Assembly: GCA_950097015.1 (NCBI GenBank)
Contig: CATNEN010000003.1
Location: 2,108,001-2,172,000, forward strand
DNA length: 64,000 nt
From: Macrostomum hystrix
Taxonomy: Eukaryota > Animalia > Platyhelminthes
Reading direction: 5' to 3'
Shown: positions 18,591 through 64,000 of the stretch, piece after piece
How the letters are laid out: each line of letters starts with the position of its first letter
Numbering within the stretch: position 1 is the stretch's first letter
Made by a program: the position numbers and the translations under genes
Notes under the pieces: generated by a model
What the model was told of the DNA's origin: nothing
What the model saw: the letters and a program-made list of their open reading frames with translations, nothing else
Database searches by the model: none

Positions 18591-18675
18591 TTGAGGATTT
18601 TAGTGCTCCAAGTCTTAATTAGTATTCAACATTTTGATGTACACAGATCCTAGCTGATGTTCCTGATTACAATAT

Positions 18676-19170: not shown

Positions 19171-19194
19171 TCGTAGATCAGAAATGTCAGGTTC

Positions 19195-32768: not shown

Positions 32769-33753
32769 CTAGCATGTTTTGCCCCCCCCTTCGGGGAGCA
32801 GAAATATTTTTAATTCGTCTTGTATATACTTTTTAGCAGCTCTATTTTCAGCTTTTTTAAGCTACAATGATCACCCAGTTGATAATGATCCCCCAGTTGA
32901 CAATGATCACCCAGTTGACAATGATCCCCCAGTTGACAATGATACCCCAGTTGACAATGATCCCCCAGTTGATGATGATCACCCAGTTGACAATGATCCC
33001 CCAGTTGGCCATGATCCCCCAGTTGACAATAATCCCCCAATTGACAATGATCCCCCAGTTGACAATGATCCCCCAGTTGACAATGATCCCCCAGTCGACA
33101 ATGATTCCCCAGTTGACCATGATCCCCCATTTGATGATGATCCCCCAGTTGACAATTATCCTCCAGTTTACCATGATCCCCCCAGTTGACGATTATCCCC
33201 TAGTTCTGGTTTAGCCATGATTCAAACGCTGGGTTAGCCATGATTCAAGCTCTGGTTTAGCCATGATTAAAACTCTGGTTTAGCCATGATTCAAACTCTG
33301 GATTAGCCATGATTCAAAATCTGGTTTTTCCAAGATTCAAACTCTGGTTGGCTATGATTCAAACTCTGGTTTAGCCATGATTCAAACTCTGGATTAGCCA
33401 TGATTCAAACTCTGGTTTTGCAATGATTCAAACTCTGGTTGGCCATGATTCAAACTCTGTTTTAGCCATGATTGAAACTCTGGTTTAGCCACGATTCAAG
33501 CTATGGTTTAGCCATGATTCAAACTATGGTTTAGCCATGATTCAAACGCTGGGTTAGCCATGATTCAAACTCTTGTTTAGCCATGATTGAAGCTCTAGTT
33601 TAGCAATGATTAAAACTCTGGTTAGCCATGATTCAAGCTCTGGTTTAGCCATGATTCAAACTCTGGATTAGCCATGATTCAAACTCTGGTTTAGCCATGA
33701 TTCAAACTCTGGTTTAGCCATGATTCAAACTCTGGTTGGCCATGATTCAAACT
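32769..33753 (-). mobile_element. 3' part of a third satellite-bearing Helitron (18-bp array about 32865-33200; 23-bp array about 33205-33753)
   Basis: The same 3' hairpin and CTAG|T end are on the minus strand at 32769, with the same order of the two satellites. The 5' part is replaced by a Gypsy fragment. Confidence 0.85.
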
Positions 33754-40261: not shown

Positions 40262-40770
40262 TTTAGCTGAAAATGAAACAAAAGGTACAAATAAATTTAA
40301 CGCGCACTTAACAAAGAAGAAAATTAAGAAAAACCACTCCCCAGCGAGTAGTTTTTGAATTTCGCTAATTTTTCATGCGCTTTAACACTGCGACGCGATA
40401 CAAAGCAAAGTATTCTTAAATAACTTAACAATAAATTGTATAGTAATTTGATTAGGTTTTTTCTTAATTTAGCAAACCGAAAAGAAAGGTGCGCAAAAAC
40501 GATTTGTACAAACATTCAAATGATGTTAGCAGTTCCATCAATCAACGTTTCACTGCGACGTAATTATACGTATAATAGACGTCGCAGATTTTTCCGAAAT
40601 GTAAAATGCCGATTTTTAAGGTCATTTTATTATTCTGATGTCATTCATAATGAATTCCGGCATAAATAAATTAAAATAAATGCTGCAGACCATTGGAATT
40701 TAATTTTTTTTCGAACGTCCCGCTTGGGACATTGGAGACCAAACATTGGGACGTCCAATTGTTATACGGG

Positions 40771-42542: not shown

Positions 42543-42998
42543 AAGTTGGAGAATAGCATGCCGTGCCCTCTTGTTACGTTTTGTTGAGTTGACATGATTG
42601 CACGCTGAAAATTTGATTTGATAGACTTTCTTAATTCTATACTTATCCTTAATTCCCTAATTTTGCTGCTGGGTGAGGTATATCCCTAATATTACAAAAT
42701 TAAAATAATAACGTTCATTTTTCCTTCAAACATGTTCGCTACTCAAGCAAAGTAATAAGTAAGAAGTTAAAGCCATTAAGAAAAATGCTTATGATTACAA
42801 GCTGATGCTCACATTAGAAGCTGGCACTTATTTACTCATAAAAATATAAGGGAGTACCAAGAACAGACAGACTGAGGGCGATTGAAAAATAAGATGGCCT
42901 TGACTCAATGATCAATAGTGCGCAGAAACGTGGGGAAAATATGGAATTCGTCTACTCATCCAATATGTGATGCGATGAGTTTGGTCTGCGCATATTTT

Positions 42999-45900: not shown

Positions 45901-47105
45901 GTTTTTCCCACTCGATCCTCTTTCTCTTCTGTTTCTTGATCGCTGCTATCTTGTTCTTCTTTGCGATCTTCCCGATTTGTTTTGCCAGGTTCGGGTGTGC
46001 CCACAAGACCTTCGGTAAGTGATCCGACAGCTTCGGGCTGTGGTCCGTGTACACTTTTCTTACGGTCTTGTGCCGTTGGTCTTTCCTTACAATGAAGCCG
46101 TCTAGCTCGTACCATCTCTTCGTTCTCGGGTTCTTCCAGGTGCCTCTTTTCTTTTGTTTGAAAAAGGAACTTGTCCACACCAAGTTCCATTCTTCCATCC
46201 ATAGCATTAGTTCCATGCCTTGGTCGTTCGCTGTTCGTGTGCTACATTTTCCGATGCAGGTGAACGGGGTTCCAGACCTCGGGTTCATTCCTGTGTTGTT
46301 GTTTCCTACTGATGCGTTAAAGTCACCTCCGATGAAAATGGCTTTCTTCTGTCCCACCGTGGTCAAGATTCTTTCGAGTTCGCTTCTTACCTCTATGATT
46401 GTACTGTCGTATCCTTCGACACCTTTGACTGGTTGGTAAACCGACACCAGGATGCAGTCGCCTAGTTCTATTGCTAGGATTCTTTCTTGTGGTTGCATCT
46501 TTCTCCCTTCTTTCAGCCAAAGTAGCCATGCCGGTTCAGAGAGTAGGATGCCTACCCTTCCGGAATGGATTAGGGGGCTTGTCCCTTCATCTGTTTTGTA
46601 TTCCCGGATTCCTGTTTGTGTCCCTTGGGTTTCCGTGATTAAGGTGATTTGCCATTTGCTGGCTGTCTTCACGATCTCGCCAAACCTTGCCGAACCGATG
46701 TTGGCCCGCTGTACGTTCCAGGTTGCTATCTTTATTCTTGATTCTTTTCAGTCCGATTCTGCCTCTTCTGTTTTCTGCTTAATTCGTTTCTCTTTTCTTT
46801 TCCTTCTTCTTAGCATTCTTCTCCTGTTTCTTGTTTTCCTCTGGTCCGCGTTCCTGGGTCCTGGGTTTTTCTCAATGGTGCACAGGTGCATCTTAATTCC
46901 TGCTTCAATCGATCTCTGCGAGTTATCTTCTGGTTTCATATTTTTGTTATTTTCTCTCAGATTTTTTTCTTTTTCTTTGCTTTTCTTTCCTTTTTCGGTC
47001 CTTCTCGTTCCTCCGTCTTCTCTATTTTCTCCTTCCGACTCTTCTTTCTCCTTCTCCTCCTCCTCCTCCTCCTCCTTCTTCTTCTTCTTCTTCTTCTTCT
47101 TCTTC
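42999..47105 (-). mobile_element. RTE-clade-like LINE: 2A-like peptide, APE, RT and four Zn fingers, with a (GAA)n tail; decayed
   Basis: APE motifs ATWNV, GDFNA and SDH. RT motifs QAGFR, DLKKAY, GLREGC and FADD. The C-terminus has CxxC...H fingers. In-frame stops are at 46748-46750 and 44198-44200, and there is a frameshift near 43300. Confidence 0.9.
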
Positions 47106-47567: not shown

Positions 47568-48209
47568 TCAAGCACGCCTTGAAGTATTTGGTTCCGGCGG
47601 AGTTGCCATGGTGCCAATTCGCTCCTGCTGCTGTGGAGTTGCCAGGGTGCCACTACACTCCTGCTGTGGAGTTGATATGGCGTTGCATCGTTCCTGCTGT
47701 GCAGTTTCCATGGTGTCTCGGTGTGCAGGTCTAGATAGAATCGGCGGCAATGGGACTAGTGCGGGCCGGGAGCCCCTGGAGTGAGACTTAGGTGTAGCAT
47801 CCAGCTTCTGGATGCGCCTCCGAGTAGCTTCTTGCTCTACATCGCTGACCTCAGTATCAGTTCTAATATTGCTCAGTGGTGGAACCTTGTCCCTATCACG
47901 GCCACTCTTGTATCGCTTGAAGTAACTCAGCAAGTTAAAGACCTGTAAAGCCTTTTCAAATCTTAATTTGCGGGCTGATTTCAATGTTTCAACCAAAGTA
48001 CTCTCTTTGTCAGACACTTGAATAACAACACCTTGATATTCACCATCTTCCAACTTGACCATCACATTCACTTCACTAAGGCATTCCAGCCAGTTCTCCT
48101 TAGAATAGCAAGCAACATCTGGATTGGGAAAAGAGACAAGTTCCCTTGGAACAATTTGGAAGCTTTCATCATCACGGTAGAAAAGTAGGAATGCCTGGCT
48201 GTCAGCCAT
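47568..48209 (-). CDS. Unknown protein (probably truncated), homologous to 55747-55980
   Basis: Both share SFQIV.RE...FP.P...W.......V.V.L.DG.(Y/F).GVVIQVSD. Both have TTTCAG immediately or nearly before the ATG. Confidence 0.6.
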   Translation of the reverse strand: MADSQAFLLFYRDDESFQIVPRELVSFPNPDVACYSKENWLECLSEVNVMVKLEDGEYQGVVIQVSDKESTLVETLKSARKLRFEKALQVFNLLSYFKRYKSGRDRDKVPPLSNIRTDTEVSDVEQEATRRRIQKLDATPKSHSRGSRPALVPLPPILSRPAHRDTMETAQQERCNAISTPQQECSGTLATPQQQERIGTMATPPEPNTSRRA

Positions 48210-48357
48210 CTGAAAATCAGAATATTGGGAAATATGATTGTTAATTCATTCCAAAATGGAGTTCCAGGTCTTATATTACTATTTAAGCAACTATAAACAA
48301 CTCATTTAAACTTGCTACAAACTACAACTGCCAACAAAAAGAAATACTATATATATA

Positions 48358-48600
48358 CGAGGGGTGTTTCAAAAGTTTCCGGACTGACGTCACCATTTTG
48401 AGTTGAAATGGCCAAATCACTTGAAATTTGATATGCAATTGCAATAAGATTATTTTTATTATGTCCTAAAATTTCTGCGCAATCGTATTAACTGATCAAA
48501 AGTTGTAATGAATTTTGCATTAAACATCGACAACAACAAATACGATTTTTGGATTTCAGTTTCAAGCGATCACTCCTAATCACTGTCAGAGTCACTGATA
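48358..48600 (+). mobile_element. Mariner-type left end (truncated)
   Basis: TA|CGAGGGGTGTTTCAAAAGTTTCCGGACTG resembles mariner TIRs. I found no partner TIR. Confidence 0.55.
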
Positions 48601-48609
48601 CCGTCGGCT

Positions 48610-48800
48610 CCCACTGGGAAGCGCAATGTCGTAACCACGTCGTTTTTGTCACATCGATTCGACGTCAACAAAGTTTCCCGTGTAACGACGTCTAAACGAT
48701 ATCATTTTACCTCACTAATACGATGTCGATTCCACGTCGATGCGACTAATTTAATCCACTTCGTTTTAACACCGTTTCCTTTATGTCGATTAGACGTCGC
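48610..48800 (+). mobile_element. Probable terminus of another EnSpm-like element
   Basis: It starts CCCACTGGG and is followed by clustered ACGTCG/CGACGT subterminal motifs. Confidence 0.4.
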
Positions 48801-49917
48801 GCTTTTGACAAACTCAGCATCCATGCTTTTTACGGTTCCGCCACTTGCAGATCTGATCTGACCTGATCTCACCACGATCTGAGAGCGATTAAATACTGTT
48901 GCCTCTGTTTACCCCTGAGCATTTTCGGAATGCAACAGTCTTCAAAGTAAAAAAAACTAATGTTTCACAAAGCAAAACTAATTATGTATTCACAGATTTT
49001 GTCATACGAGCAATATAAGAAACGCAGGCCTTTGAAAACACCCATTTATTTCCGCAATTAGACAATCACATCATTAAATTGCATTAAAAATAAAATTGCA
49101 CAATTATGAGTTACTACAACAATTTTGGCAAATGACATGTAAAAAACTGCATCAGACATGGAAAACATACAGTAAACCCGTACAACAATTTTCCGTATCG
49201 AGACGTATCGGAGACGTCCCCTCAAGGTCCCATTGAAACGTCTCCGGGAACGGTATTTCGATAGTTACGGATTCGTCCCGAGGCGAGAATTTGGGGACGT
49301 CCACTGCAGGTCGCAAAGGAACGTAAAAATACGTGCCCGTGAATCAGCAATTTTGTCGCATTTCCTTTCTGAATGAAGTAATTTACTGTGCCAATAAATC
49401 AGTATGAATGATTGTGCAAATTATAGAGAAAATAATCAAAAGCTAACAGAATCCTGCTCAATCAAGAAGTTTTTTGGTTAGCCAAAACGCGCTAGTTTTT
49501 TATATTGATATATTCATCGGCATGTTGGAGAATTTATAAACTGCGTATGCCTAAATTAATTATGATATATTATACTACATGAAATAATTTTAGTTGATAC
49601 ATAAAACGATTGTGAATATTAGCATAAATACTAAATCCGCAAAATAGCATAAATATGCAAGTATAGGCAAAATAAGTTTATAATGTAGCACAAAAGGCTT
49701 AATAATAATACGTGTACCGTTAATAATATTTTTTTTCATTTTTATTAGTATCATAGACTTTTCAATTACATGAGGGGAAAAGTATGCTTTGAGTGCAGAG
49801 TCGTATCTGCAAGAAGGCGCAGGGTAAGAGAAAACGGCATGCTTTGATAGCAGGTGCAAGAAAAAAACGGCACAAAAAGTTTCAACCAATGCTGTGTTCT
49901 TTTATGATAATTGTCCT

Positions 49918-51994
49918 TTACTCTTCCATGATGCTATCATTGTCCAGATTAACGCCGTCATTATCAACGCTTTCTACGTCGTCGCCCATGTCGGAATCGT
50001 CGCTATCATCGTCTTCGACATCGCCATCAGCGTCTTCCACATCGACATCATCTTCGTCCTCATTGTCATTATCGTCATCATGGTCGCACACAATGGTCGC
50101 ACCATTGTCCGTCGCAGCATTTTTATTGCGAACTGCCTCCTCATTGATCTCAGAGCCGTTGTTCCGAACAGAGCCTTTTGATAAAGTGCTGGCTCTTCGA
50201 GTCATCCGTTTTAGGATGCTGCCAACGTAGCCTAATGCAGACACGGATCCAAGCTGTCGTCGCAGGTTTTTGAATGGAGTATAACATCTAAAAATATTTG
50301 CTGAGTTTAGTCACAGCGAAAGGAATAATAATCCATAATTTGCTATTTGAAACATACTCACGAACAATGCACTCTGAAATAGCTATCGGAAGGCGCATTT
50401 TTGATCCCCGACCTTGAATGTTGAAGTGACACAATAACCTGGGGACTAGCTGCCACATAAGCATCAAATTGACGGCATCTGAAAGCTTGACACTGTTTTC
50501 AGTCCGCTTGAAGCAGTAATTGAGCTAAAATGAAATTAGTTGATGTATGTTGAAAACTATAAAATGGTACATTCATCTGCACAACGCAGTAGAAGACGCA
50601 AGGTAAACTTTCTCGTGACAAAACGTACATATGCTGCCCTTAGTTCCGGATCGTTCTGATTCTGAATTCGACTGTCGAAGTCTATCATCTGGTCGATTGA
50701 CTTGTAGGGCAGCGACCTGAGCAAATCAGTCATCGGAGCAGAAATTTCTTGCCTGCTTGATGAAATGATGAATTTCTCCTCCAATGAGACCATCCGCTCA
50801 AGGAGCAGCTTCATCCAATCTACAATTTTTAAACGTCTGCTTTAACGACTGATGAGGTATAAAAATGATCAAGAATCTGGTTTTATATTAATAACTATAA
50901 ACTGCTAAGCTCAACTTAGACGAAACTTACTTTCAAGATGCTTGCAATGGCATTGCTTCGCACACTGAGCAGTGGCACCAGATGATTGAGCAGTGGCACC
51001 AGATGATTGAGCAGTGGCGCCCGATGACTGAGCAGTGGCGCCCGACTGAGCAGTGGCGCCCGACTGAGCAGTGGCGCCCGACTGAGCAGTGGCGCCCGAC
51101 TGAGCAGTGGCGCCCGATGACTGAGCAGTGGCGCCCGATGACCAAGCAGTGGCGCCCGATGACTGAGCAGTGGCGCCCGATGACCGAGCAGTGGCGCCCG
51201 ACTGAGCAGTGGCACCCGATGGCTTCGCAGACCGAGCAGTGGAGCCCGACGGCTTCACAGACTGAACAGTGGTTTCAGAGGTTGATGACTTCTTAGCTAA
51301 TGGTGTTGATGGACTAGCCATTGGGCCGGATGACGTCTTGGCTACTGTTGATGGACTAGCCATTGGGCCGGATGACGTCTTGGCTACTGTTGATGGACTA
51401 GCTATTGGGCCGGATGACGTCTTGGCTACTGTTGATGGGCTAGAAATTGGTTTCGCTGGTTGAGTCTCAATTTTGGACTGAAAAATTGGCATACTTGGCG
51501 CAACTGGAAAAGACACTGATGGGTTAATATTCTCAACTGCGGCCAGTGGAGATTTTGTAAGTCGAGGACGACGACGCCGTGGTGCTACAGATTCATCCTG
51601 CCAGTCTTTGAAGTGCTCGACTTGCTTACGCTTCCGCTTCCCATCAACATCGGTGTCCGAAAGAGTGCCCGTTTTATCAAAGCGTGTAAGACGATTGAGC
51701 AAGTAGTCCAGATCGTCTGAAAAAATAATAAACTACACAGTGCGGATATGTACACAAAATCTGAACATGGGACACACGGTGCTTACCATTCCAAATGTGA
51801 CACTTGACAATCCTGTGGGTTTCCCAGCTGCTTCCTGGGTTCTCTTGCTGACGCAGACGTCTCACAAGCCTGGGGTCAGTAGCACTTGAGTAGTCATTTG
51901 GCAGCCTAACTGCTGTACCATCACTTGTGAACCAATTCATTGAAACAATCATATTTCCATCAGCGAAGTTTACAAAACAATATTTCTTCGTCAT
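49918..51994 (-). CDS. 5-exon accessory gene of element C (DUF4806-like): exons 51994-51787, 51716-50931, 50819-50629, 50524-50362, 50287-49918; 1-nt frameshift near 50268
   Basis: The GT-AG junctions keep phase. Features include an N-terminal VNFADG..VSMNW, an NLS GKRKRK, an FNIQGRGSK motif and an acidic tail. Confidence 0.7.
50965..51440. repeat. Coding tandem repeats: 18/21-bp (SGATAQ)n and about three 42-bp (STVAKTSSGPMASP) units
   Basis: Read directly within exon 2 of the accessory gene. Confidence 0.85.
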
Positions 51995-52150
51995 CAGTAA
52001 TCAGGATATCAGATCAGAAATATGAAAATTTAGACATTTAGATATTGTGATATGAATACAAATCAAGTTCTAATTGCTTGTTGTTATTTCTAACTTTAGT
52101 TGTTTATAACTGTTTGTTTGTTGGTGATCGAATTGTTTTAGTGATTTGTT

Positions 52151-54248
52151 TCAAAAGCAATTGTATGTATGGTGAAGTGGGCAAGCAAACCACTGCCCCT
52201 GAGAATCTGGCAATGGAATAACCATAAGCTTGCACAACACATCCTTCAACTGAATGCAGCAGACTGGAATGGACAGTCTTTCAAGCTTGTAAAAATGTAG
52301 CTGATCTGATTGAATTATTCTGCTATGAAAGGGTTCCTTATGCATGAATTTTTGGCCAACAAAGCTAATATGACCCTTGCTGTCATGAATAATGTTTCTG
52401 ACTTGGAGAATGGTTCCAGAGTTAGAGAGAATGAATCCATCTCGCTCATTAGTAGCAATTTGAGTTGATGGCAGTTTACATATTTTATACTGTGTAACAT
52501 TCATTGGAATCACACCAGGTGGCAGAATATTACTTGTGTGCTCTCTCTGTAGTTTAATTTCTGACTCACCAACACATGGATTAAACTGCCCTAGGCACTG
52601 ATTGTTTTCCTTTACTCTTTTGACAGCCTGCTGTAAAGGCATGGTTGGTGAACGAACAAGCCTCTTCACAAATCTTAAAAAATTCTCAAATGGAAAGCAA
52701 CTCACTTCATTTATATTTCTATGAGCAAGAACGTCCTCAAAAATGTGCAGAAGAGAATGAACATTGTATACAACAAACTGGCTTCCAAGTAAATTTCTTG
52801 TTTGTGTAACAAATGTATTACAAAGTTGCTGCAAAAAATCTAGATATTCATTGTTCAAACTTGGAGAGTTAAACAAGTTAATGATGACATGAAATGAAAG
52901 TAACCAGTTAAGAAAATCATCATTGCCAACATGGGGAATGAGAACAAAGGTGCTAAATACAAGAAAAATAGGCGTACTACTGTTGCTTTCCACAAAGAAA
53001 GATGCTGCAACAGTTCTGGCCTACGAGAAAAATCTGTTGGTAAGTACTTCCTTGCATGCATAAGGTATGCATTAACTTGTCCTTGAAGCAACTGAGAAAG
53101 GCGAAATGGCAGTTTACCTTCTTTAAGTATCTTCAAGGCCATGAGCCCAATACCTTTATAGAGCAAATGCATGGAATCAGCTGGGAAGCCAGAGATCATA
53201 TCAATAGAAAGATCTTCAAAAGCTGAGTGGGCATGATGATGAGCTGGTTGGAGCTGGTCTCGAAATGATTTGTCTGTTCGACGTGCAGCATTAAAATCAA
53301 GAAAAACAACAGTCCTGCCTTTGTTGCGAGTTTGCTCATAATCTGTTGTTCCTTTCTGGTGACAACGATCACATCCATAGTATCCATTATAACTTTTGAT
53401 ATTCTTAATAAAATATCGTGCTGGTGTATCACAAATAACATACTTTAGATGTATCTTGTATTCAATTCTGCATACATGAAGTCCATCTTGTAATATGCAC
53501 ATTTCACTTATAAATGAAGCCAAAAAATTGTTAGAACTTGATGGCTTTGAAGGCCCATAATAAAGTCCAACAAGAAATTCTGATGATTTAATGCCTTGGA
53601 TAGATGCAACAATAGTCCAAAAACCAGACACTGTGCTATTAAAAATAGGCAACCCATCAATACAAACATTAAGGTAGATTTCATCTGATTGTGGCAATAG
53701 ATGCACTACATTTAGAGAATTAAATATATACTTGATTCCAGAAGCAATTCCAAAATGATAGTATTTACCAGGAGGAACATTAATTAGCTCAATTGTCCTG
53801 AAGACCCAAGAAATGTACGAGGATCAGTTGGAAGCTCTGGATAGCTTGGCTTTAGTAGTTTAAGAAGATCTTTGATTGCCACATGTGAAAAATTATGATC
53901 TATACAGACCTGCTTAAATTTCTCACTGAAACATTCATTATCAGACTCTTGGTCAATAGAACTACCAAAACTTTCATCACCACTGCTATTAACATCATTA
54001 TTACTAATAGCAGCTCCAACTTTTTCTTCCAAAGCATCTTCACTAGAACTATTATTAGAATCAGATATTATACTTGAGAAATTACTAGAATTTGAAATGA
54101 TATTTTGGTCTTGGAGTTGACAATTATTAGCAGTTGAATTGTCATTATTAATACTATCAGTAGAATCTGTTTCACTAGAAGATGAAACTAAGTGTGCACT
54201 TAATTGCATTAACTGATTTGCAGCTTTTTTATGTCTATTAGATGCCAT
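52151..54248 (-). pseudogene. EnSpm/CACTA transposase, copy C (two 1-nt deletions)
   Basis: It has the same motifs as copy A. Frameshifts near 53795 and 52947 are single missing bases in short runs. Confidence 0.85.
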
Positions 54249-55746
54249 TTATTATTTTGAATTGTTGATTAGGATTTAAATTAACTTATAGCTAGGCTCA
54301 ACTTTTAAGAATCAAAATAGTAAACTTTTAATGTTTCAGTGGGAATGAATATAATTGATCATTTCTGCATAATATATACGAGCCTTATTAAGATCAGAAA
54401 TATACAATTTTTAGAAAATAAGCATAGCTAGATCAAAGCAAGTAATATAGAGCCTAGATAAGATAAAGGCCTACCTACTCTGCTGAGCTTTCCAAATTGC
54501 AAAACTAACTTAGCAAACAGTCAATATAAGAGTTATATATGCTTAATTACATCGAAACCAGATACAAAGTTTAGTTACACAACTATCAACTAAGCTACTA
54601 AAGAAGTAAAAAACGATTATAATTTACTATCCAGCAAATAATTGAACATCTTTCTCACACATTTGGAGTCTGCGTCAGCTAGAAAGACACACTACATTCA
54701 AATTTTCTAAGAGGAACACGTAACAAGCAACTAAACAAATATTAATTTGCTTATAGGCGCACGATTTGAAGCTTAAAGACAACAAAATAGTGTCGAAATG
54801 CAACAGTGACATCTGTGTCAATTATTTTGTAGCACAGGATCGATTTTTTTAAGACAACAAAAACTCGATTTAAAAAGAATTTTGCTTTTTAAACTTTCGT
54901 ACTTTTTATGTATCTTTTTGTGTCGTTTAAATTACGTATCAGTAACGTCCTAATTTAACGCATTTTTTTAAAGAGTGTTTATGGTGCACGGAAAATGTTT
55001 ACTTGTTTTTTATTCTTTTCTATTATTGCCTATGTAATATAGATGGCAATGGTGTGTGAAAAAAAACATTTTAGTTATAGTACATTTGGGGACGTATTTG
55101 GGACCTTGGGGTAACGTCTAAATGTTATACGGGAAAAGCACAGTTTAGGAGCAATAGTAAAAGCAGCACGGGGCAAGTCCCAGAAAATATTAGCTGTGCA
55201 AGGCTGCTGCAATTGTCAAATCCACTAAAATAACTTGCATTGCCATCCTCCGCCCTGACACCAAACACTATAAGCAGAACTGTCAGTTGCAGCCTTTTAT
55301 AGTATCAATATAATATTGGTATGTGCAGGATCATATGTATTGCTTATTTCTTATTGCTGAATTTTAGAGCCCGGATTACTAACTTATATATATTTGTTGT
55401 GTAACAATAAATATCTAAGCTGCATATAAATCAATTAATCTTTCACAACCACTTTGGCCCACTTTGAATGACCTGCTGCGTATTCGTTTGTCAGCAGAGT
55501 CCATGTCCATATAGTCAATATCACTATTTAGTCAATGTCCATATAGTCCAATATTCATATACTCTAATGGCAAAAGCACTTAACCTGTTTACATGCAAAC
55601 GCAAAAATGGCGTGAAAGCTTGCATGTAATTTACCTATGTGAATAAAATGCGCACACCAATATATGAAAAGCAAACAATGTACACTAATTTTACGTCCTA
55701 AGACGTTGACATAAAAAATGTTAAATAGAAGAAAATACATTTTTGG

Positions 55747-55980
55747 TTACAGCGTCACGGAGCGAGGATCAGCCAAGTTTTGCTCATCATCTGATACCTG
55801 GATAACAACTCCTTCAAAATCGCCATCGTCTAGTGTGACAGTAACAGTGACAGCCTGAGTGGACGCCAGCCAATCTGACCTAGTCCAAGATTCAATGGGT
55901 GTTGGAAATTGGATGATTTCCCTTGAAACAATTTGGAAGCTCTGGGCAGCACGAAAAAAATAGAAATGCAGAGACTTCAT
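55747..55980 (-). pseudogene. Truncated paralog of the unknown ORF 47568-48209
   Basis: There is clear amino-acid similarity over about 70 residues. Confidence 0.55.
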
Positions 55981-56042
55981 TCATCTGAAATTAAAATAAA
56001 TAAAAAACATTGAGTCATTGAGTATTGCCAACATGCCATTGA

Positions 56043-58376
56043 TGTGGAGTGTACTTCGGAATCGAGTGGGGTTGTGAGCCAGCCTAATTTTTTTCAATTT
56101 TTAGCAAGTCAATAATCGCGACCCACATAGCAGCTGGCCGCAGAACACCATCATTAATCTTAGGGCCAGACATTGGGCGGAGGTGAATTAAGTAGCCGCC
56201 GATTCCCTTTGTCTCGGATCTGTCTAGTCCCCTGTAGGAGTGACTGATCGCGGAAATAGCAATACTGTATGGACTAGTTTAGGTTATAATTCCCCTCCAA
56301 ACCGCGATCAGATTGTCGGGATCACTCATGCGTTTAGAGTGAGCTTTAATTCTTCATGTCCCTCTTCTTTACTGTAACCCGAGCCGAAGCTCGATTATGA
56401 CCTTTCCCCCTTTTGATACATGTAACGACACTATAGGCAGGTCGGCGCCTGCGCTTCCCATATCCCGGCGGGATCACAATCATTGGCCGACTGCCGGCAG
56501 ACGCTCCTAGTGGGGCATCTGGCGATTCTCGCCGCCGCTTCAGTGGGCAATTGGGGTGGCATTATGCCGACCCGATTCCTCGCTGACAGGCCGGCGAGCA
56601 TGTGGGTTATTTTGATGAATGCGAGGTTGGCGGAGCTGCAGGACTATTTAAGAGAGCGCGCTGCGCTGCCCCTAGAACAACCTACCTTCCACCGACCTTC
56701 CCCCGGACCTACGTGTCCACCCTTACAACCTTTTTCCCTTGTCCGGTCCCGGAACTCGGTCCGTGGACTCTCCCCCTTCTAGGCTAGCACCTAGTCCCTG
56801 AGCCTAAGGCTCCAGATCATAGCAGCAGGCAACTACCTGCTAGTGCCCTTAAGCGCAAGCCACCTCCTTAGGTGCGCTCCAAATTGAGCCTTGAGCTCCC
56901 TGCAGTCTGGCCCCTTGCCAACTGTACTCAGCAATCCCTCACCTTTTCTCCCGTTCATTTGCATTCCCCCGCGAGATCGACGACCTGCAGCCTGTCAACC
57001 AGCGTAGTCAGATAAGTAACCCGCGCAGCGGACTGTTATTGCTATCCCTAAGGGATTTACTATTTAGCTAGTGGGTAAAAGGGCAAGGGCAGGGATTTGA
57101 TTTAGCCTAATAAAACTATTAATTCACAACTCATCTAACTTATTGGGCATTTTAATAACAACTTAAATCCTTTTTACTATGCATTTCACTTTCTCTTATT
57201 TTATCGTTAGACAGCCCTCGATCATGAGTGGCTAACTTATTAGGGGGATGGGCTCTGGTGATGCCTAGCTGAAAGCTGCGGCAGGAGGATAACTGTGAGC
57301 GCGCATGGAAGTAATAAGGAGCTAGGGATTTGCGAGTAATATGCGGAGCGTAGCATGTGTTTCTCTGCTAGGGGTGGGGGAATTCCTTGGCGGGTTTTTC
57401 CTCTCTTTCTGGCAGATCAAGGAGTGCGTGTCAACCTCCCTTGTCAATGAATGTTTCCCTTCTGTTCCCCGCCTCTCGCTGCCGCCGCCATGGGAGCGAG
57501 GGGTGTGATCTAATAATCACCGCTTGCATAATCACTCAGCCAGTGTTCTGCTCAATCTCTCCTGCCTCTGATTTCCTCATCTCACACAGATTCGGATTTG
57601 CTAGTTATTTAATGTGTAGGCTGCAATCTAATGTATGGAATGTGTCTAATGTCTCATGAGTAGGATTCTGGCTATGGATTTCTCATTCGGGTTCGGAGTA
57701 CCACCTTTCTAGACCACTGTAGCGCAGTTTCAGGAATCCCCTTGTGAGGCGTGACTCGATCCATTCTGGGGTTCTCACCCTAGTCTAAAACGGAAGTTAC
57801 AGAATGCTCTATTTTTCGGCTTGTCTAAGATCTGTGTGACAAACTGGGAGCTGCGAGCTCCGGGGACCCAAGTTCCCAAATGTCTGCGGTGGCGACGCAG
57901 GCGCATTGGGTGGTGGCGCTACCTTCGATCATTATCCGCTTTGCCGATAGCCTTTCCGCATTTCTAAGACAAGAGCCTAGGCCGAGTCGACCACTGCTAC
58001 CAAAGTTAGGAGTCAGTTACGAACATGCTACTGATGACAGTAGGCTATCTAGCCCTGTCCTATTCGCTTGCGGGTAGTCCGACATCTATTTAGACTTTTA
58101 GCCGGTTTCGAGCACTGCTTGGGGTGGGCACGGCAGTCATGCCTGTGGCCTATGGGTTGGGTGGGACTGGCCAGCCTGAGGCCAATAGGACCACTCACTT
58201 GCATCCTTTGTACCGCCTCATCTCTCCCTTCATCTCTCCCTTCATCCCTCCCTTCGTCATCCCTCTCTGCGACAACTCGCGGCAGCAGCGATCGACCTCC
58301 GACTCTATCGTCGTTTTCCACACTCCTATCTTTCATGAGGGCGGTCATCGGCTAGCAAAAGACCCGAACTATTTCA
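56043..58376 (+). repeat. Putative long 5' LTR (start uncertain: 56043 TGTGG or 56421 TGTAAC)
   Basis: It ends in ATTTCA one nucleotide before the PBS and contains AATAAA at about 57108. No partner LTR is in the window. Confidence 0.5.
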
Positions 58377-58377
58377 A

Positions 58378-58398
58378 TGGTGGCATCGAGGTGGGATC
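58378..58398 (+). promoter_or_regulatory. Primer-binding site, tRNA-Leu-like
   Basis: TGGTGGCATCGAGGTGGGATC resembles the complement of the tRNA-Leu 3' end (TGGTGGCAGCGGTGGGAT). Confidence 0.65.
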
Positions 58399-59687
58399 TA
58401 GAAAGGGCGCGAAACGAACCTGAATTTTTTTTCAATTGTTAGTTTAGCGCCGCAGATTTCTGGGGTAGTTAGCCGTAAGGGCTTCTTCTAGATTTCATTT
58501 TCCGTATGCCGAAATCTTATCTCAGTTCTAGTGACTGTCAATTAATTTCCGAACAGTTACGATTTGTTTTCAATTTAATTTAGGCGTTTGTTAGAGTTTC
58601 CAAAATTCTGATTAGCGACTTTCTACTATGAGTAGGCTGTGTGAGCGGACTTCATGCTAGAGTGTCTTCGGGTTATGTGGCTGCTGCAGGAGTCGGGGAC
58701 TGTCTGTGGGGTTTCCCGCGTGACTGTTCTGGGAGGGGCCAATCTTAACGAAGGACCGGGCCATGCCGGTCAGGCCTCCTAACCGAGCGAAGTGAGCCCC
58801 CGGCAATGCAGCCGGGAACCGATGACTCGCTGAGCACCGGGGGTTGGTTCTCTTGGGCAGCTTGTAGGCCTGCTTACGTGTACCTGATTCTGAATGTGTC
58901 ACATAGCTTTGACCAAGTCTGACTTTGGTGGGGAACAGTTAGGGAGGTGGGACTTCTGAGGGAGGTCTAGCGACCCCCGTGCCCGCCTCTCGAAACTGCC
59001 TACTTCAAGTATGGGCTAGAATTCGGTCGGCACGTTTTTCTAAGAGATTCTTTGAGGGGTTTTCTAAATGGGGTAGCCAGGCTTTAGCCATGGACTCCTA
59101 TCCGAGCGAGATCCCAGGTATATCCCCCCTGGGCTTCCCAGTCTCGTTAATCGCGAGGGGGGCCCCCGGCAATGCAGCCGGGAACCGATGACTCCCTGAA
59201 CGAGTCGGGGATTATCCCTTCTCTGAGTATCTTATTGAGGCGTGTACTTTCCAAGGTAGGGTGATAGGCTGTTGCAGGCGCAAGCTTGCAGTAGTACTGA
59301 CCCCGCCGTACCTATAGTGCAACAGTCCGCTATAGGGTTGCAGAACGAGTGCTAAGTTAAAACCTAGACTTCTATGTCCCAAACTTAAGTGCGCGCAAAC
59401 AGTTGTCAGTAGCCAAGGCTGGAAGCAAAGCTAGCCAGGGCCCTGGGCCCTTTTTCTCTCTCATTGATCTTTGATCCTTTTTGCGGTAGGGTTGCTCTCT
59501 AGGAGTAGGAAATTCGCCGCATTATTAATTAGGGCTGGACTTGACAGCTCAGGCTCATTTTCTTTCCCCCCCGCACGATCTCCAGTCGTGATCTGTTTTC
59601 CTCTTCTCCCTTTCCCCCATTGTTGCATTAGCGACAGACCCCCCCTCTTTTTCATTCGCAAAATCCTCATTCCTCTTTTGGCCGAAA

Positions 59688-60746
59688 ATGTCCGACCAGG
59701 AGGGTGAGGTGGTGGAAGTGGTTGGAGTCAACCGCCCACCCAGAGGCCGCGCCGCAGCTGCGGCGCGCGCCGAACCCCCAGCGGCTGCTGCAGCACAGCA
59801 AGCCGACCCTATGGAGCGCCTGGCGCTGCTTTTAGAGCGGCTAGAGGTGCGACGACCCCGGAACCACCGGGTCAAAGTTGCTATTGAACCCCTCGAATCC
59901 CGAAAGGATTCCTTCCCCCTCTGGCTTCGCCGATTTAACCTGAAGCTGGAGGCGGAGGGTGTCGAATCCGAGGAGGAGAAAATCCTCACCCTCCTCGCTC
60001 ACCTGAGTGGCGAGCCCCTCACCGAAGCGCTAGGGTTGCCCCGCCGGGTGACCTACCTTAGATTCGTGCAGGATCTGACCGAGGCCCTTAGTGGCGCCTG
60101 CACCCCCTACGCCCGGCTGCTGAGCGGGCGTAATTTGAAGCAAGGACGGGACGAGACGTACCCCGCCTTCGCCGATAGACTCAGAACAGCGGCCCTGCAG
60201 GCCACCCCCAATGGCCACGGTGTGCACTTCGAGCGCGCTTTGCTGGCCTCTTTTATGGAGGGGATAGTGGCCCCACCCGAGGTGTTGGCACCCATCATGC
60301 GGATGGAATTTGCCACGGCTGAGGCCGCCGCCGCCGAGCTGCGTGCTGCCACGCAAGCGCATGAAATGGCGGTGGAGCGGGACCCTCGCCGGCGAGTGCG
60401 CCAAATCAGGACAGGTTCAGATGACGAACCGGACCAGCCAGAGCCGCAGCACGGGCTGCTGGCAGAATTAACCAAGGTGACCCAGCAGCTAGCCGAGATT
60501 TCTCAGCAGCTGCGGGAAGCCAAGCCCAGCTCCATCCCCCCTCTCTGCCCACACCCAAATGGGCATCAGTGGCACCCGAAGCGTGTAGAACACGGGGCTG
60601 CTGGCGGAGCGAATCGTGAGGTGGCGAAGGGAAATGGGAACGGGGCCGCCAATTGGAGGCAGTCCCACGGCCCCGAGACCCAGCCCGCAGCTCGACAGTC
60701 GGAGCGGCGGCAGCCGCCGCCTCCGACCTCCGAGAAGTCCGAGTGA
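59688..60746 (+). CDS. gag: Gag-like capsid protein (no CCHC knuckle)
   Basis: It has FPLWLRRF, LLAHLSGEPL and an MHR-like LKQGRDETYPAFADRLR...FMEGI. It is an intact 352-aa ATG ORF. Confidence 0.8.
   Translation: MSDQEGEVVEVVGVNRPPRGRAAAAARAEPPAAAAAQQADPMERLALLLERLEVRRPRNHRVKVAIEPLESRKDSFPLWLRRFNLKLEAEGVESEEEKILTLLAHLSGEPLTEALGLPRRVTYLRFVQDLTEALSGACTPYARLLSGRNLKQGRDETYPAFADRLRTAALQATPNGHGVHFERALLASFMEGIVAPPEVLAPIMRMEFATAEAAAAELRAATQAHEMAVERDPRRRVRQIRTGSDDEPDQPEPQHGLLAELTKVTQQLAEISQQLREAKPSSIPPLCPHPNGHQWHPKRVEHGAAGGANREVAKGNGNGAANWRQSHGPETQPAARQSERRQPPPPTSEKSE
60629..60675 (+). promoter_or_regulatory. Programmed -1 ribosomal frameshift signal
   Basis: The slippery heptamer G_GGA_AAT is in the gag frame (60629-60635). 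A 5-nt spacer precedes an 8-bp GC stem, CGGGGCCG (60641-60648) / CGGCCCCG (60668-60675). The -1 frame opens after TGA 60617-60619. Confidence 0.8.
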
Positions 60747-61177
60747 ATGCACTCGGCCGAGTCCCCACCCGAGTGCGAACCCGCCCAAATCGCTCTGAGC
60801 AGCTTAGTGAGGTGTGGGTCGCCTTGGAAGTGGAAGGGACACCCCTAGACCTCCTCATCGACACAGGGTCTATGGTAAATGTGCTCCCGGACTCGTTGTC
60901 ATCAATCTTTCAACACTACCCATTCGAACCCCCGCAATTTTCTCTTTTTGCTTATAATGGAACACCCATTGTTGCACAGGCGCAGGTCAGGGTCAAATTA
61001 CAGGTTGGCACCGAAGCGCTGGACACCGTGTTCTTAGTGGTTGAGGGCGACTGCTCTCCCCTGCTCGGTGCCTCCTGGTTGGCTCATCATCATGCCATCG
61101 TTGACTTTGACTCGCGCCACTTAATCATATATCGTCAATTTCTCCCCTTTTCACTCAGGCGGAAGGCTAAATTTTAA
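60629..61177 (+). CDS. pro: Retropepsin (aspartyl protease) in the -1 frame, giving a Gag-Pro fusion
   Basis: It has the LLIDTGSMVNVL active site and PLLGASWL. The stop at 61175-61177 has no RT after it. Confidence 0.85.
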   Translation, partial: GKWERGRQLEAVPRPRDPARSSTVGAAAAAASDLREVRVNALGRVPTRVRTRPNRSEQLSEVWVALEVEGTPLDLLIDTGSMVNVLPDSLSSIFQHYPFEPPQFSLFAYNGTPIVAQAQVRVKLQVGTEALDTVFLVVEGDCSPLLGASWLAHHHAIVDFDSRHLIIYRQFLPFSLRRKAKF

Positions 61178-61331
61178 ATTAGGAGGGTCACCGTGACCTA
61201 GGGTCAATCACCATTTTCTTTCCTCGCCCACCCCACCCCCTCCTCTGGTCGTCGACTTATTTAAGTAAGGGCTGGGAAAGCTAAGCAGGAAAGTTTTATT
61301 CTAGTTTAAGAACGAAGGAACTAGTTCAGAC

Positions 61332-61913
61332 ATGGCAAGCTTTGGCACCGTCCTGGCGTGGTGGCTAGAAGTGGCCGCCACGGATTATCGCCGCGAACTG
61401 GCAGGGAAGAGGACCTGGCTGATGGTCCGCCTGTGGCTGTTACCCATGATAGGACGAGCGGCCCAAGCAGGCGTTGACCTCGCCCTTGCCTGCCAGCTGG
61501 CAGAATCTAGGTGGCTGGCCCAGGCGTGGTGCGAAGAGCGGGACCCTCTGCCGCCTAGGGGAGAAGACGAGGCAAACCTCCCTTGGAACCTGCGGTGGAT
61601 GGAGTACAGCCCGCCAGAGGATTGGAGCATTACCATCCCCGATGAGCTCGCGTCCTGGCTGCAAGCCAAGAGGATCCCAGGACAGGAAGAGTTGGAGCAC
61701 CAGCTGGTCATGCGCCGGATCGGGATGCCAGAGACCACCCTGCGGTCAGCGGCAGACCCGGATTGGCGTGAGTGGCTCCACGGACATCGCATCGCCGAAG
61801 AGCCACCGCCCGGGGACAGCACGCTCGGCCGCATGGTGAGAGAGATGGAAGGCGAAGAAGCTAGCGAGGGACCGGCGGAAAGTACGCCCATCAAGGAGGC
61901 GGCCGAAGAATAG
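61332..61913 (+). CDS. Unknown Trp/Glu-rich 193-aa ORF3 of the LTR element
   Basis: The ATG is in good context (GACATGG), the ORF is intact and GC-rich like gag, and it has no RT, IN or env motifs. Confidence 0.65.
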   Translation: MASFGTVLAWWLEVAATDYRRELAGKRTWLMVRLWLLPMIGRAAQAGVDLALACQLAESRWLAQAWCEERDPLPPRGEDEANLPWNLRWMEYSPPEDWSITIPDELASWLQAKRIPGQEELEHQLVMRRIGMPETTLRSAADPDWREWLHGHRIAEEPPPGDSTLGRMVREMEGEEASEGPAESTPIKEAAEE

Positions 61914-62171
61914 GAAAGCGCAAGGTAGGGTCAACAGAGGTAGTGACCGTAGAATAGTAGGAACAGGACCACTATCCGTTAGGCCCCTGTCCCCTGTCCC
62001 CCTTGTCCTTTTCCTTTCTTCTCTCCCCTTTAATAATAATTCGCACTCTGCACCGTTTGTTCTCTTCTTCCTATTGTGCATGTTTTCCCTTTTTCATCAA
62101 AGCCGCCTTGGCCAAAATTCTCACACAAAAAAAAATTCTTATAATTTTAGCCAAAACCACAAAAATACACA

Positions 62172-62715
62172 TAGTGGGGTGAAATTCCCCTGATACTTTT
62201 TACATAAGATGCTTATCTAATTGTAGCAAACTAGGGTATGCACCTTCTTTTCTTAAAGAGCATTTTACTTTAATCGCACCACATCATGCATGGCACCTCT
62301 GCCTTATCTTGTTCATGTTGGTGGGTCTGTGGGAGTTCAATTTAGGACAACTTCTAAATTAGGAGGGACACCAACCCGCTAAAGTGAGCGGGGTGGTATG
62401 CCTTGGGAAATTCTATGCTTTCTTTAAGGGTGGGAAGGAGGTTTCAAATCAAAAAGGCCATCTCGGCGCCAAACCCGCTTAAAAACTCATATAAACTAAT
62501 CAAAATCCAAAAACATATTTAGTGGGGTGAAACTCCCCTAGTACGAATTTTCGCATGAAATATTTTCGTAATAACTGCCGCAAACTAGGGTTCGCACCTA
62601 CTTTTCGCAAACTTGCTTATCTTACATGTTCTCTATGCTTGGTTTCGGGAGTTTAGCTATGCCGGTTTCTATTTAGGGGGTATACCAACCCGCTAAAGTG
62701 AGCGGGGTGGTATGT
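62172..62715 (+). repeat. Two diverged copies of a structured non-coding module (about 62172-62401 and 62520-62714)
   Basis: Shared blocks are TAGTGGGGTGAAAyTCCCCT, GCAAACTAGGGT..GCACCT and ACCAACCCGCTAAAGTGAGCGGGGTGGTATG. Confidence 0.8.
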
Positions 62716-64000
62716 TTCGGGAGTTTTTCTTAATGTTTGTTTAAAGAGTGGGCGGTTGTAAATCAAGAAGCCGGTAGGGTCAGGTATTCAAATTCTAGGG
62801 GAGACAATCTGGCTGTTTCAATGAGCGACAGATTTCAAAATGATAATTTTTCTTTTGTTAGGGCTAGAAAAGACAAGGAAACATTATTTAGGAGCCAGAA
62901 GCTAGCAGCTGGGAGTACAAATCTAGGTACCTAGGTAGTAATAAATCGTATGAATTAAGGCTCCAGACGTTTCAAAAACTCATTAACAGTCTATCAGTTA
63001 GTTTTTTGGTTACTAGGCGGTTGTAAAACTTGAGCAGTAATGTTTCGTCTAGGAAAGAAGTCGGGTAAAGATAGTGAGTTCTATTTTTTTTGCATATTCA
63101 AATATTGCTGGCAGAAGGTCTTAAGTTGGCACATTTTATTTACAAGTCCAGAGCGGTAGCACCATGTTGTTGAAAAATTAGGCATAAGTCAGGTTAAAAA
63201 GAAAAGGAACATTTAGACAGGGCAGCGTTACGTGGCGTGGCCGGCCCAGGAATAGTAGTGAGCGCCAGGTTTTTCACAGTAGAAAGGCGATTACGGCCAG
63301 AGCCAGAGCGACAGCAAAGATGCCGGCCGCCAGAACCGCGCCCAGTGGGCCCCGGATGAAGCCAAGAGCGATGGCGGCGACATCTTCTTCGCGGCCCTCG
63401 GGCACGTTCATGTCTGCAGGAGTGGGGTGGAAGAGAGGGGTAGTTAGTCAATGGAGTCTCAAATAGCGAAGCGCGGATGGGATAGACGTACGGGAGTGTC
63501 GGCACATTAATGATTAGACTTACTCAGAATAATTGACATGCTGATGGGTTCGCCGGAGCTGGCCCGCCGCCGAGGTGGATTTAAAAATCCGGGTAGGTAG
63601 TCACTGAAAGAAGAAAGGGGGTAGTTATGACAGATAGCGACAGAATAGCGTGGGGATTCGCAATCTAAATAACTCTCAATTTAACCAATTGTTAACTAAG
63701 GGGGGGGGGTTTTCACCTTATTGGGTCGGGGTCAGTTTCAAATTTTGGGGATCAGTAGGCGTGCCGTGGGTGAAGGGAGACTCTGTTTATTCTAATTCTT
63801 ATGCAATAACCCTCGCAATAATCCTTAATAACCGGCCTTGGGGGCCGAGTAGAAGAAAAAACTCACCTTTCTCCGTCAGGTTGCTGCCGGGCCATTAGGT
63901 AGTCAGGACGTACGCGATTCACAAGGATGTCAGATTCAGTATGGCGGCAATTGCAGTCAGATTTATTTTTGTGTTTACGAGATAACAGGCTTGAGGTTAA

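What the first reader, a model, noticed from the sequence alone, without database searches (positions are those of the whole stretch)
59688..61913. Pol-less LTR element with an intact Gag-(-1 frameshift)-protease cassette and an unknown ORF3 (PEG10-like layout in a mobile element)
Seen: gag, the protease and ORF3 are all intact, whereas nearly every other TE ORF in the window is broken. The protease stops cleanly at 61177, and I see no RT, RNase H or integrase remnant in the following 2.8 kb. Established: Gag plus Gag-Pro made by -1 frameshift at a G_GGA_AA(C) site without a functional RT is the layout of the domesticated mammalian gene PEG10. Inference: this is either a streamlined satellite retrotransposon that builds and matures its own capsid while borrowing RT/IN, or a capsid-based RNA-packaging system, with ORF3 sitting in the pol slot.
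Basis: partly seen in the sequence, partly recalled or inferred. Interest (0 to 1): 0.8.

Follow-up and report, generated by a model that had tools for sequence, protein, structure and literature searches.

The report
Pol-less Gag-protease retrotransposon with orphan ORF3
This is one copy of a repeated retrovirus-like mobile element of an invertebrate that keeps intact genes for a capsid, a protease and an unrecognised third protein but has no copying enzymes, so it likely borrows them from a helper element, a design already described in wheat and Arabidopsis.

Summary
The anatomy is real. A 2.3-kb 5' LTR (56040-58376, TG...CA) and a primer-binding site precede gag (352 aa, retroviral capsid fold), a -1-frame aspartic protease (DTGS) and a 193-aa ORF3. 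No RT, RNase H or integrase trace lies in the next 2.8 kb. The slip site is G_GGA_AAU, not PEG10's AAC, with a predicted pseudoknot 5 nt downstream. Public assemblies show a multi-copy family, not a one-off deletion. Three near-identical and three diverged (about 80-85%) contigs join the protease end to ORF3, and one contig runs from the 3' region into the LTR within about 1.2 kb, too short for pol. Diverged copies keep ORF3's ATG and change mostly silent positions, so it is likely a real gene, but nothing resembles it in sequence, language-model or fold searches. Gag has lost the zinc knuckle that all 8 fetched relatives carry. The PEG10 likeness is superficial. The close precedent is the 'semi-autonomous' Gag-Pro elements of plants (Sabrina_SA, gag-protease-only ATHILA). 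What is new is an animal case with a frameshifted protease, a knuckle-less Gag and a conserved orphan ORF3. Helper, target-site duplication and expression are untested.

The parts
56040..58376 (+). 5' LTR, 2337 bp, begins TG and ends CA
   Evidence: Contig depth jumps at 56040 in all four runs laid. X3 record 18 and X7 record 24 start their match at 56040. Termini read from the sequence.
58378..58397 (+). Primer-binding site, one base after the LTR (starts TGG; resembles a tRNA-Leu 3' end, recalled and not tested)
   Evidence: Sequence and position. No tRNA gene in the window to compare.
58398..59687 (+). 1.3-kb leader with a duplicated 47-nt hairpin motif (58787-58833, 59153-59199)
   Evidence: z -2.6 and -0.8. 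No Pfam family in three frames.
59688..60746 (+). gag, 352 aa: two-lobed retroviral-type capsid (about residues 63-231) and a coiled coil; no CCHC zinc knuckle
   Evidence: Seven HMMER relatives at 26-30% identity. Atlas hits are Gag/PNMA clusters. In the fold search 29 of the top 29 rows are retroelement or retroviral capsid or Gag-derived domains, best Z 8.1, rmsd 2.4, 82 aligned. The knuckle is present in 8 of 8 relatives and absent here.
60629..60635 (+). Predicted -1 slippery heptamer G_GGA_AAU
   Evidence: In the gag frame, 9 nt after the -1 frame opens. A diverged X1 contig begins to match the window at 60627 (table 7).
60641..60726 (+). Predicted stimulatory pseudoknot: stem 1 60641-60648 with 60667-60674 (8 G-C pairs), stem 2 60653-60660 with 60719-60726
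   Evidence: z -3.75 for 60636-60740 but only -1.06 for 60636-60700. Not tested experimentally.
60620..61177 (+). Retropepsin-type protease in the -1 frame (DTGS). Predicted Gag-Pro fusion about 496 aa, ending at TAA 61175-61177.
   Evidence: Pfam gag-asp_proteas E 6.6e-5, below its curated cut-off. Weak match to Ddi1/ASPRV1 protease domains. 16 of 28 listed differences between copies are silent.
61178..61331 (+). 154-nt spacer, closed in all three frames in this copy; length and sequence vary between subfamilies
   Evidence: tables 4 and 5.
61332..61913 (+). ORF3, 193 aa, acidic, 12 Trp, no transmembrane segment, no known relative
   Evidence: ATG kept in register in two diverged contigs, and mostly silent divergence in a third (table 7). 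No hits.
61914..64000 (+). 3' untranslated region (runs past the window end) with a duplicated ~350-bp unit carrying a strong hairpin (62359-62408, 62673-62722)
   Evidence: z -3.1, -4.1. X7 record 24 links 62685-63044 to the LTR start about 1.2 kb later.
63045..63785 (.). 741-nt stretch present in this copy but skipped by a contig in each of the four runs laid
   Evidence: Joint 63044 to 63786 in X1, X2, X3 and X7; depth drops in these bins.
55728..56039 (-). Insertion site: remnant of a transposon-like gene similar to the ORF at 47568-48245. Bases 56035-56039 are the candidate target-site duplication, untestable without the 3' end.
   Evidence: 75% match of 55918-55990 to 48141-48215; translation.

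Best explanation
It is a copy of a multi-copy LTR retrotransposon family that encodes Gag, a protease and ORF3 but no pol, and it likely spreads as a semi-autonomous element that builds and matures its own capsids while a helper Ty3/Gypsy element supplies reverse transcriptase, RNase H and integrase. Shown: LTR, PBS position, three open frames, capsid fold, absence of pol in the window, and the same protease-ORF3 junction in near-identical and diverged copies. Inferred: RNA from the 5' LTR yields mostly Gag and, by a -1 frameshift at G_GGA_AAU before a pseudoknot, a minority of Gag-Pro. The frameshift is kept because it sets the capsid-to-protease ratio and brings protease into the particle. 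ORF3 is made from its own ATG, probably on a spliced or internally started RNA, as an accessory protein. Helper Pol enters mixed particles and recognises the shared PBS and LTR ends. Because this Gag lacks its zinc knuckle, RNA capture likely relies on helper Gag, on ORF3 or on the basic Gag tail, using the duplicated UTR hairpins.
For: LTR and PBS anatomy. X1 depth is 144-192 in the flank, 1,454-2,821 over the ORFs and 9,119-55,133 over the LTR. Pieces identical to the window in the protease and ORF3 have depth 541 and 693, against 71-85 for locus-specific pieces. The tool warns that depth is no copy number, so I use it only as 'repeated'. Protease-to-ORF3 bridging in 3 near-identical contigs (X2 rec 9, X3 rec 16, X4 rec 24) and 3 diverged ones (X1 rec 1; X1 joint 61174-61354; X3 joint 61128-61354), covering two studies and two organism labels. 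X7 record 24 reaches the LTR 1,211 nt after 63044. Protease differences: 16 silent of 28 against an expected share of 0.25-0.30, p 0.0003-0.003. ORF3: over 9 full codons of a diverged X3 contig 7 residues are kept, 6 of them by a different codon (read by hand). Plant precedent.
Against: No helper was found. The protease search among longer proteins found nothing (0 of 288 candidates) and no genome is held. The 3' LTR, polypurine tract and target-site duplication of this copy lie outside the window. X7 record 24 belongs to a more abundant sister variant (about 93% identical in the 3' region), not to this copy. One search showed 40 of 242 differences, 24 of 54 loose ends and a minority of pieces (161 not shown), so a pol-bearing relative may be hidden. 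Among near-identical copies the 5 listed ORF3 differences are 1 silent and 4 amino-acid-changing, which shows no recent purifying selection. Frameshifting, particle formation and expression are untested.
Confidence: 0.82

Rival explanations
1. A deletion derivative that amplified passively. The element lost pol once and was copied as a passenger by its parent family. Gag, protease and ORF3 are intact only because the copies are young, and they do nothing for the element.
For: The near-identical copies are very young (0-16 differences over 0.7-2.2 kb). Listed ORF3 differences among them are 4 amino-acid-changing to 1 silent. In ATHILA a recurrent ~3 kb pol deletion gives the same layout (passages).
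Against: Subfamilies about 15-20% diverged keep the same layout, the protease stop, the ORF3 start and reading frames, with silent-site bias. That divergence could be inherited from pol-bearing parents only if each lost pol at the same place independently.
Confidence: 0.1
2. A split (bipartite) retroelement. This unit is the obligate Gag-protease half, and a sister unit with the same LTR and UTRs carries pol without a working gag, so each needs the other.
For: In X3 the LTR and the 3' region at 62108-63058 have depth 173-354 while the ORFs have 28-90, so most elements with these ends carry a different or no coding region. Division of labour was suggested for wheat Fatima subfamilies (passage).
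Against: No pol-bearing sister was seen. The abundant variants could equally be non-coding or gag-diverged derivatives, as with Sabrina_NA. One abundant variant starts a different gag at 59710 (table 7).
Confidence: 0.05
3. A domesticated, PEG10-like host gene or a host RNA-packaging system.
For: The gag / -1 slip / protease / stop order resembles PEG10. The capsid fold matches PEG10, PNMA2 and Arc domains (Z 6.8-7.2).
Against: It is LTR-bounded, has a PBS, is repeated in several diverged subfamilies and sits in a transposon remnant. The fold matches are no better than those to retroviral and Copia capsids.
Confidence: 0.03

Closest known systems
RLG_Sabrina_SA (and RLG_WHAM) of wheat and barley, 'semi-autonomous' Gypsy elements (PMC9744471, passages)
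   Same: Intact GAG-Pro, no RT or integrase in the whole family, high copy, long-lived. Sister variants share the ends but swap the coding region for short orphan ORFs.
   Different: Plant. GAG-Pro is described as one ORF, whereas here the protease is in the -1 frame. The helper (RLG_Wilma) is identified there and unknown here. ORF3 here sits after Gag-Pro in the same element.
Gag-protease-only ATHILA of Brassicaceae (10.64898/2026.03.20.713144, passages)
   Same: 934 of 2,322 intact elements keep only gag and protease. About a quarter of all elements (673) carry a downstream ORF of unassigned function.
   Different: They arise by a ~3 kb deletion from identifiable autonomous ATHILA that share the downstream ORF. 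No pol-bearing form was seen here. Homology of the extra ORFs was not tested.
Wheat Fatima subfamilies 1.4 and 1.5 (10.1101/363192, passage)
   Same: Gag and protease ORFs only; RT and integrase proposed to come from another subfamily.
   Different: Plant; no ORF3 mentioned in the passage seen.
PEG10 / PNMA3 / PNMA5 (PMC11299033 and PMC5009743, passages)
   Same: Ty3/Gypsy-type Gag with a -1 frameshift at a G_GGA_AAN site and an RNA structure 5-8 nt downstream; a protease follows in PEG10.
   Different: Those are immobile host genes using GGGAAAC. This is an LTR-bounded repeat using GGGAAAU, with an extra ORF and no zinc knuckle (PEG10's knuckle is recalled, not from a call).
Ty3/Gypsy elements of Macrostomum lignano (Mag, CsRN1, Gmr1 clades; 10.1101/2024.12.18.629116, parts 1-2 of 3 read)
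   Same: Two of the seven Gag relatives are named M. lignano proteins.
   Different: Only 27-30% identity. That catalogue counts copies lacking RT, RH or INT as truncated or damaged, so a pol-less family would not stand out. No clade can be assigned without RT.
Non-autonomous animal LTR elements: short Troyka of sea urchins (PMC12440569) and TelKA2n of bdelloid rotifers (PMC5408684), passages
   Same: Animal LTR elements without functional Pol. Bdelloid elements carry diverse non-env ORF3s, typically from spliced messages.
   Different: The passages seen do not describe a kept, frameshifted protease. TelKA2n lacks part of gag and keeps an env-like ORF.

Membership tests
Semi-autonomous Gag-Pro LTR retrotransposon (Sabrina_SA type) | LTR with TG...CA ends followed by a PBS | tested here: met
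   56040-58376 and 58378-58397
Semi-autonomous Gag-Pro LTR retrotransposon (Sabrina_SA type) | Second LTR, polypurine tract and target-site duplication | tested here: inconclusive
   Outside the window. A sister variant's contig reaches the LTR about 1.2 kb after 63044. Purine runs exist at 63606 and 63698 but lie in the stretch that other copies skip.
Semi-autonomous Gag-Pro LTR retrotransposon (Sabrina_SA type) | Intact gag and aspartic protease | tested here: met
Semi-autonomous Gag-Pro LTR retrotransposon (Sabrina_SA type) | No RT, RNase H or integrase as a family trait | tested here: met
   None in the window. All 6 listed contigs that bridge from the protease end go to ORF3; tables were cut.
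Semi-autonomous Gag-Pro LTR retrotransposon (Sabrina_SA type) | Multiple dispersed copies and subfamilies | tested here: met
   Depth far above flank, and contigs at 80-99% identity. Dispersal itself was not mapped.
Semi-autonomous Gag-Pro LTR retrotransposon (Sabrina_SA type) | An autonomous partner sharing PBS and LTR termini | not testable with these tools
   No genome held; protease search among longer proteins empty
Ty3/Gypsy (Metaviridae) clade assignment | RT phylogeny and PR-RT-RH-IN order | not testable with these tools
   No pol. The Gag relatives carry Retrotrans_gag/PNMA/zf-CCHC Pfam hits, which points to Ty3/Gypsy but not to a clade.
PEG10-type domesticated gag-pro gene | Single-copy, LTR-less, immobile locus | tested here: not met
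   LTR, PBS and many copies
PEG10-type domesticated gag-pro gene | -1 frameshift at GGGAAAC with downstream structure | tested here: not met
   The site is GGGAAAT, with a predicted structure. It works alike in principle but the heptamer differs from the one in PMC11299033.
PEG10-type domesticated gag-pro gene | CCHC zinc knuckle in Gag (feature recalled) | tested here: not met
   No CX2CX4HX4C; only two Cys in the protein
Env-bearing LTR element (errantivirus-like ORF3) | ORF3 with a transmembrane segment, Cys-rich ectodomain and several hundred residues (features recalled) | tested here: not met
   193 aa, 2 Cys, highest 19-residue hydropathy 1.23
TR-GAG (gag-only plant elements; definition recalled) | Gag as the only coding domain | tested here: not met
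   Protease and ORF3 are present and conserved

The most novel reading that the evidence does not exclude
An old animal lineage of true satellite retrotransposons. It builds and matures its own zinc-knuckle-less capsid and uses a new protein, ORF3, in the pol slot as an adaptor that captures a helper's Pol or replaces the lost nucleocapsid in selecting RNA. It would head a cooperative system in which more abundant sister elements with the same LTRs ride in its particles.
Probability: 0.15. Interest if true: 0.72.

Novelty: new variant of a known kind. Interest (0 to 1): 0.4.

Why it matters
Semi-autonomous Gag-protease elements are documented mainly in plants, and RT-anchored annotation pipelines treat such copies as damaged. 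This shows the strategy as a lasting, selected lineage in an animal. It poses two testable questions. How does a Gag without a zinc knuckle choose its RNA? What does a conserved orphan protein do in an element that has shed everything but its particle genes? A naturally minimal capsid-plus-protease unit is also a useful comparison for how PEG10-like genes arose. The layout itself is not new, which caps the score.

Tried and rejected
Word-seeded protein searches found nothing for Gag (0 of 7,995 candidates), ORF3 (0 of 208) or the protease among longer proteins (0 of 288). These are weak negatives: the exhaustive HMMER search did find 7 Gag relatives, and that search could not be repeated for ORF3. 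ORF3 had no usable Atlas hit (recognition 1759, below the 2300 mark), a single-sequence model of pLDDT 42.9, no Foldseek match better than E 1.6, two PDB sequence rows at E 0.23 and 0.76, and one Pfam row at E 0.22. None of these is usable. Foldseek on Gag gave no E<=0.001 row, though the top rows were capsids. The PDB profile search with the Gag alignment hit mainly the relatives' zinc knuckles. The metagenome scan with P0006 returned 3 loci matching only the knuckle region, and the viral-contig scan could not run on the alignment. Rfam gave 3 chance-level rows, so no known ribozyme was found in 56000-64000. No heat-shock element or TATA match was found in the LTR by simple patterns. No RNA holder was listed, which says nothing on expression. 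A second frameshift fusing the protease to ORF3 was considered. In the X3 and X4 contigs the frame lying -1 to the protease appears open across the spacer into ORF3 (read by hand). It is closed in the window, X1 and X2, it opens only 4 nt before the protease stop, and no canonical slip site lies there, so I rejected it as the main route. Literature searches for an animal gag-protease-ORF3 pol-less family listed none. Repbase and Dfam cannot be searched here, so it may be catalogued there. Supplements of the bioRxiv papers were not seen and may list such elements. Look-ups of earlier scan findings by place and sequence were empty.
Full report
OBSERVATION. With stops read as X, no RT, RNase H or integrase family scored at E<=0.5 in any of six frames of 61178-64000 or three frames of the leader. 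The slip site is G_GGA_AAT at 60629-60635. It is the only canonical heptamer in the gag/protease overlap, and 58 of 2000 codon shuffles gave one by chance. Five bases later an 8-pair all-G-C stem begins, whose loop can pair over 8 bases with 60719-60726, a predicted pseudoknot. The fold of 60636-60740 has z -3.75, but the first stem alone is unremarkable (z -1.06). The claim that neighbouring elements are nearly all broken is overstated: 883-aa and 849-aa stop-free polymerase frames lie in the same window.

EXTENT OF THE ELEMENT. No genome is held, so I used assembled contigs of public runs. Eight runs in two studies hold the stretch, none on record as RNA. I laid five of the eight. On 54500-64000 (X1, X2, X3, X7) depth rises abruptly at 56040, where the sequence starts TG, and falls after about 58380. 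There the sequence ends CA at 58376 and is followed one base later by a TGG-starting primer-binding site. This defines a 2,337-bp 5' LTR. In X1, mean depth is 144-192 in the flank, 9,119-55,133 in the LTR and 1,454-2,821 over the ORFs. The tool states that depth is no copy number; I take from it only that the element is repeated. The upstream flank is a remnant of a transposon-like gene resembling 47568-48245, so the element is an insertion into another repeat. X7 record 24 (2,599 nt) matches 62685-63044 with its first 379 bases and the LTR start with bases 1591-2599, so that variant reaches its 3' LTR 1,211 nt after 63044. A contig in each of the four runs skips 63045-63785. For the window's copy the 3' LTR is therefore expected about 1 kb beyond the window (inference). 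A pol of about 3 kb does not fit in that variant.

FAMILY TRAIT OR ONE-OFF DELETION. On 60560-62000 (X1-X4), three near-identical contigs bridge the protease end and ORF3 (X2 record 9, X3 record 16, X4 record 24). Three diverged contigs at roughly 80-85% identity do the same across a different spacer (X1 record 1 with 162 letters between 61149 and 61359; X1 joint 61174-61354; X3 joint 61128-61354). Of the 5 joints listed, 3 go from protease to ORF3, 1 from the spacer to ORF3, and 1 is in-frame within ORF3. The listed loose ends behind the protease are short (35-49 nt) and read as its C-terminus. One X1 loose end keeps the stop codon. The tables were cut (202 differences, 30 loose ends and 161 pieces not shown), so a pol-bearing relative is not excluded.

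ARE THE GENES UNDER SELECTION? Of 28 listed differences in the protease outside the overlap, 16 are silent, against an expected share of 0.25-0.30 (binomial p 0.0003-0.003). 18 are at third positions and none is in the catalytic motif. The sites are the best-supported subset and are not independent. For ORF3 the evidence comes from loose ends read by hand (table 7). Two diverged contigs (X2, X4) have ATG exactly at 61332. They differ from each other at 4 of 8 bases before it but at only 2 of 22 from it onward, both silent. A diverged X3 contig keeps 7 of 9 residues over 61440-61466, 6 of them by a different codon. A long diverged stretch in X4 changes length by exactly one codon. Against this, the 5 listed ORF3 differences among near-identical copies are 1 silent and 4 amino-acid-changing. 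On balance ORF3 has been a selected gene over the family's history, but recent constraint is not shown.

THE PROTEINS. Gag has 7 relatives at E<=0.001 among 1.84 billion representatives (26-30% identity). Two are named Macrostomum lignano proteins, which suggests but does not establish a flatworm host. A model built on a 7-sequence alignment (mean pLDDT 62.6, about 80-94 over residues 150-230) matches retroviral, Copia, PNMA2, Arc and PEG10 capsid domains (best Z 8.1, rmsd 2.4, 82 aligned; rows within 1 Z are ties). All 8 fetched relatives have a CCHC knuckle and this Gag has none. The protease is a retropepsin, 34% identical over 62 residues to the protease region of P0007. ORF3 is acidic (35 D+E, 20 K+R), has 12 Trp and 2 Cys, and has no transmembrane segment. 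It matched nothing usable. It is neither env-like nor a recognisable pol remnant.

MECHANISM. The best reading is a semi-autonomous LTR retrotransposon (0.82). Its RNA likely yields Gag and, by -1 frameshifting, a minority of ~496-aa Gag-Pro that matures the capsid. ORF3 is likely made from its own start codon; ORF3s of LTR elements are typically translated from spliced messages (PMC5408684, passage). RT, RNase H and integrase must come from another element if the family moves, since it has none. The duplicated hairpins in the leader and 3' region are candidate packaging or dimerisation signals (inference). Rivals are a passively amplified deletion derivative (0.10), a two-part element with a pol-only sister (0.05) and a domesticated gene (0.03).

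COMPARISON. It works like wheat RLG_Sabrina_SA, which has an intact GAG-Pro, no RT or integrase, 5,397 copies analysed, a distant helper sharing PBS and LTR ends, and sister variants with orphan ORFs (PMC9744471, passages; I was led to it by an earlier scan note). It also resembles gag-protease-only ATHILA (934 of 2,322) and Fatima subfamilies. It is not a member of those plant families; no homology was shown or expected. It fails the tests for a PEG10-type gene. The -1 frameshift is ordinary for animal LTR elements (28 of 51 in a survey quoted in PMC5009743), and PEG10, PNMA3 and PNMA5 use GGGAAAC (PMC11299033). Animal non-autonomous LTR elements are on record. Nine searches listed no animal family with this gag / frameshifted protease / ORF3 layout, and repeat databases were not searchable. 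Earlier AI notes report pol-less elements in other genomes; these are unchecked leads, not support.

VERDICT. A real feature and a new variant of a known kind. The layout is known from plants. The animal setting, the retained frameshift, the lost zinc knuckle and the conserved orphan ORF3 are the points of interest. Interest 0.40.

Noticed in passing
window 60560-60610 (Gag residues ~290-310): Only the histidine of the relatives' CCHC zinc knuckle aligns here. Near-identical copies in other samples share the loss (X2 record 12 has 2 differences over 59347-60768), so it is a subfamily trait.
   Followed up: partly
window 56040-59710 and 62108-63058: The LTR, leader and 3' region are several-fold deeper than the ORFs in X3, and one abundant variant departs from this gag after codon 8. 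More abundant sister elements with other internal content share these ends.
   Followed up: partly
window 61171-61331: In the X3 and X4 contigs the frame lying -1 to the protease appears open across the spacer into ORF3. It is closed in the window, X1 and X2, and no canonical slip site leads into it.
   Followed up: partly
window 61164-61192, 62344-62408, 62673-62722: The sequence at the protease stop resembles (83%) the start of the duplicated 3' hairpin unit, a possible trace of how the junction formed.
   Followed up: no
window 63045-63785: Low-copy 741-nt stretch with GC-rich parts and two purine runs; origin unknown.
   Followed up: no
window 13342-15993 (+): 883-aa stop-free frame with protein-primed PolB-type (PF03175) and endonuclease VII (PF02945) hits, a Polinton/adintovirus-like polymerase gene (label recalled).
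   Followed up: partly
window 43265-46747 (-): Non-LTR retrotransposon with an 849-aa endonuclease-RT frame (PF00078) and a further 310-aa frame downstream.
   Followed up: partly
window 34056-35003 (-): Remnant of a second, unrelated gag (PNMA Pfam row); no tblastn match to this element's Gag.
   Followed up: partly
window 38078-42656 and 47568-55990: Several decayed DNA-transposon-like ORF sets (38120-39913 matches 52153-53930 at 66%). The LTR element is inserted into one of them.
   Followed up: no
window 6700-12600, 18600-22000, 32860-33760: Large minisatellite arrays, one interrupting a galactose-binding (fucolectin-like) exon near 19716-20528.
   Followed up: no
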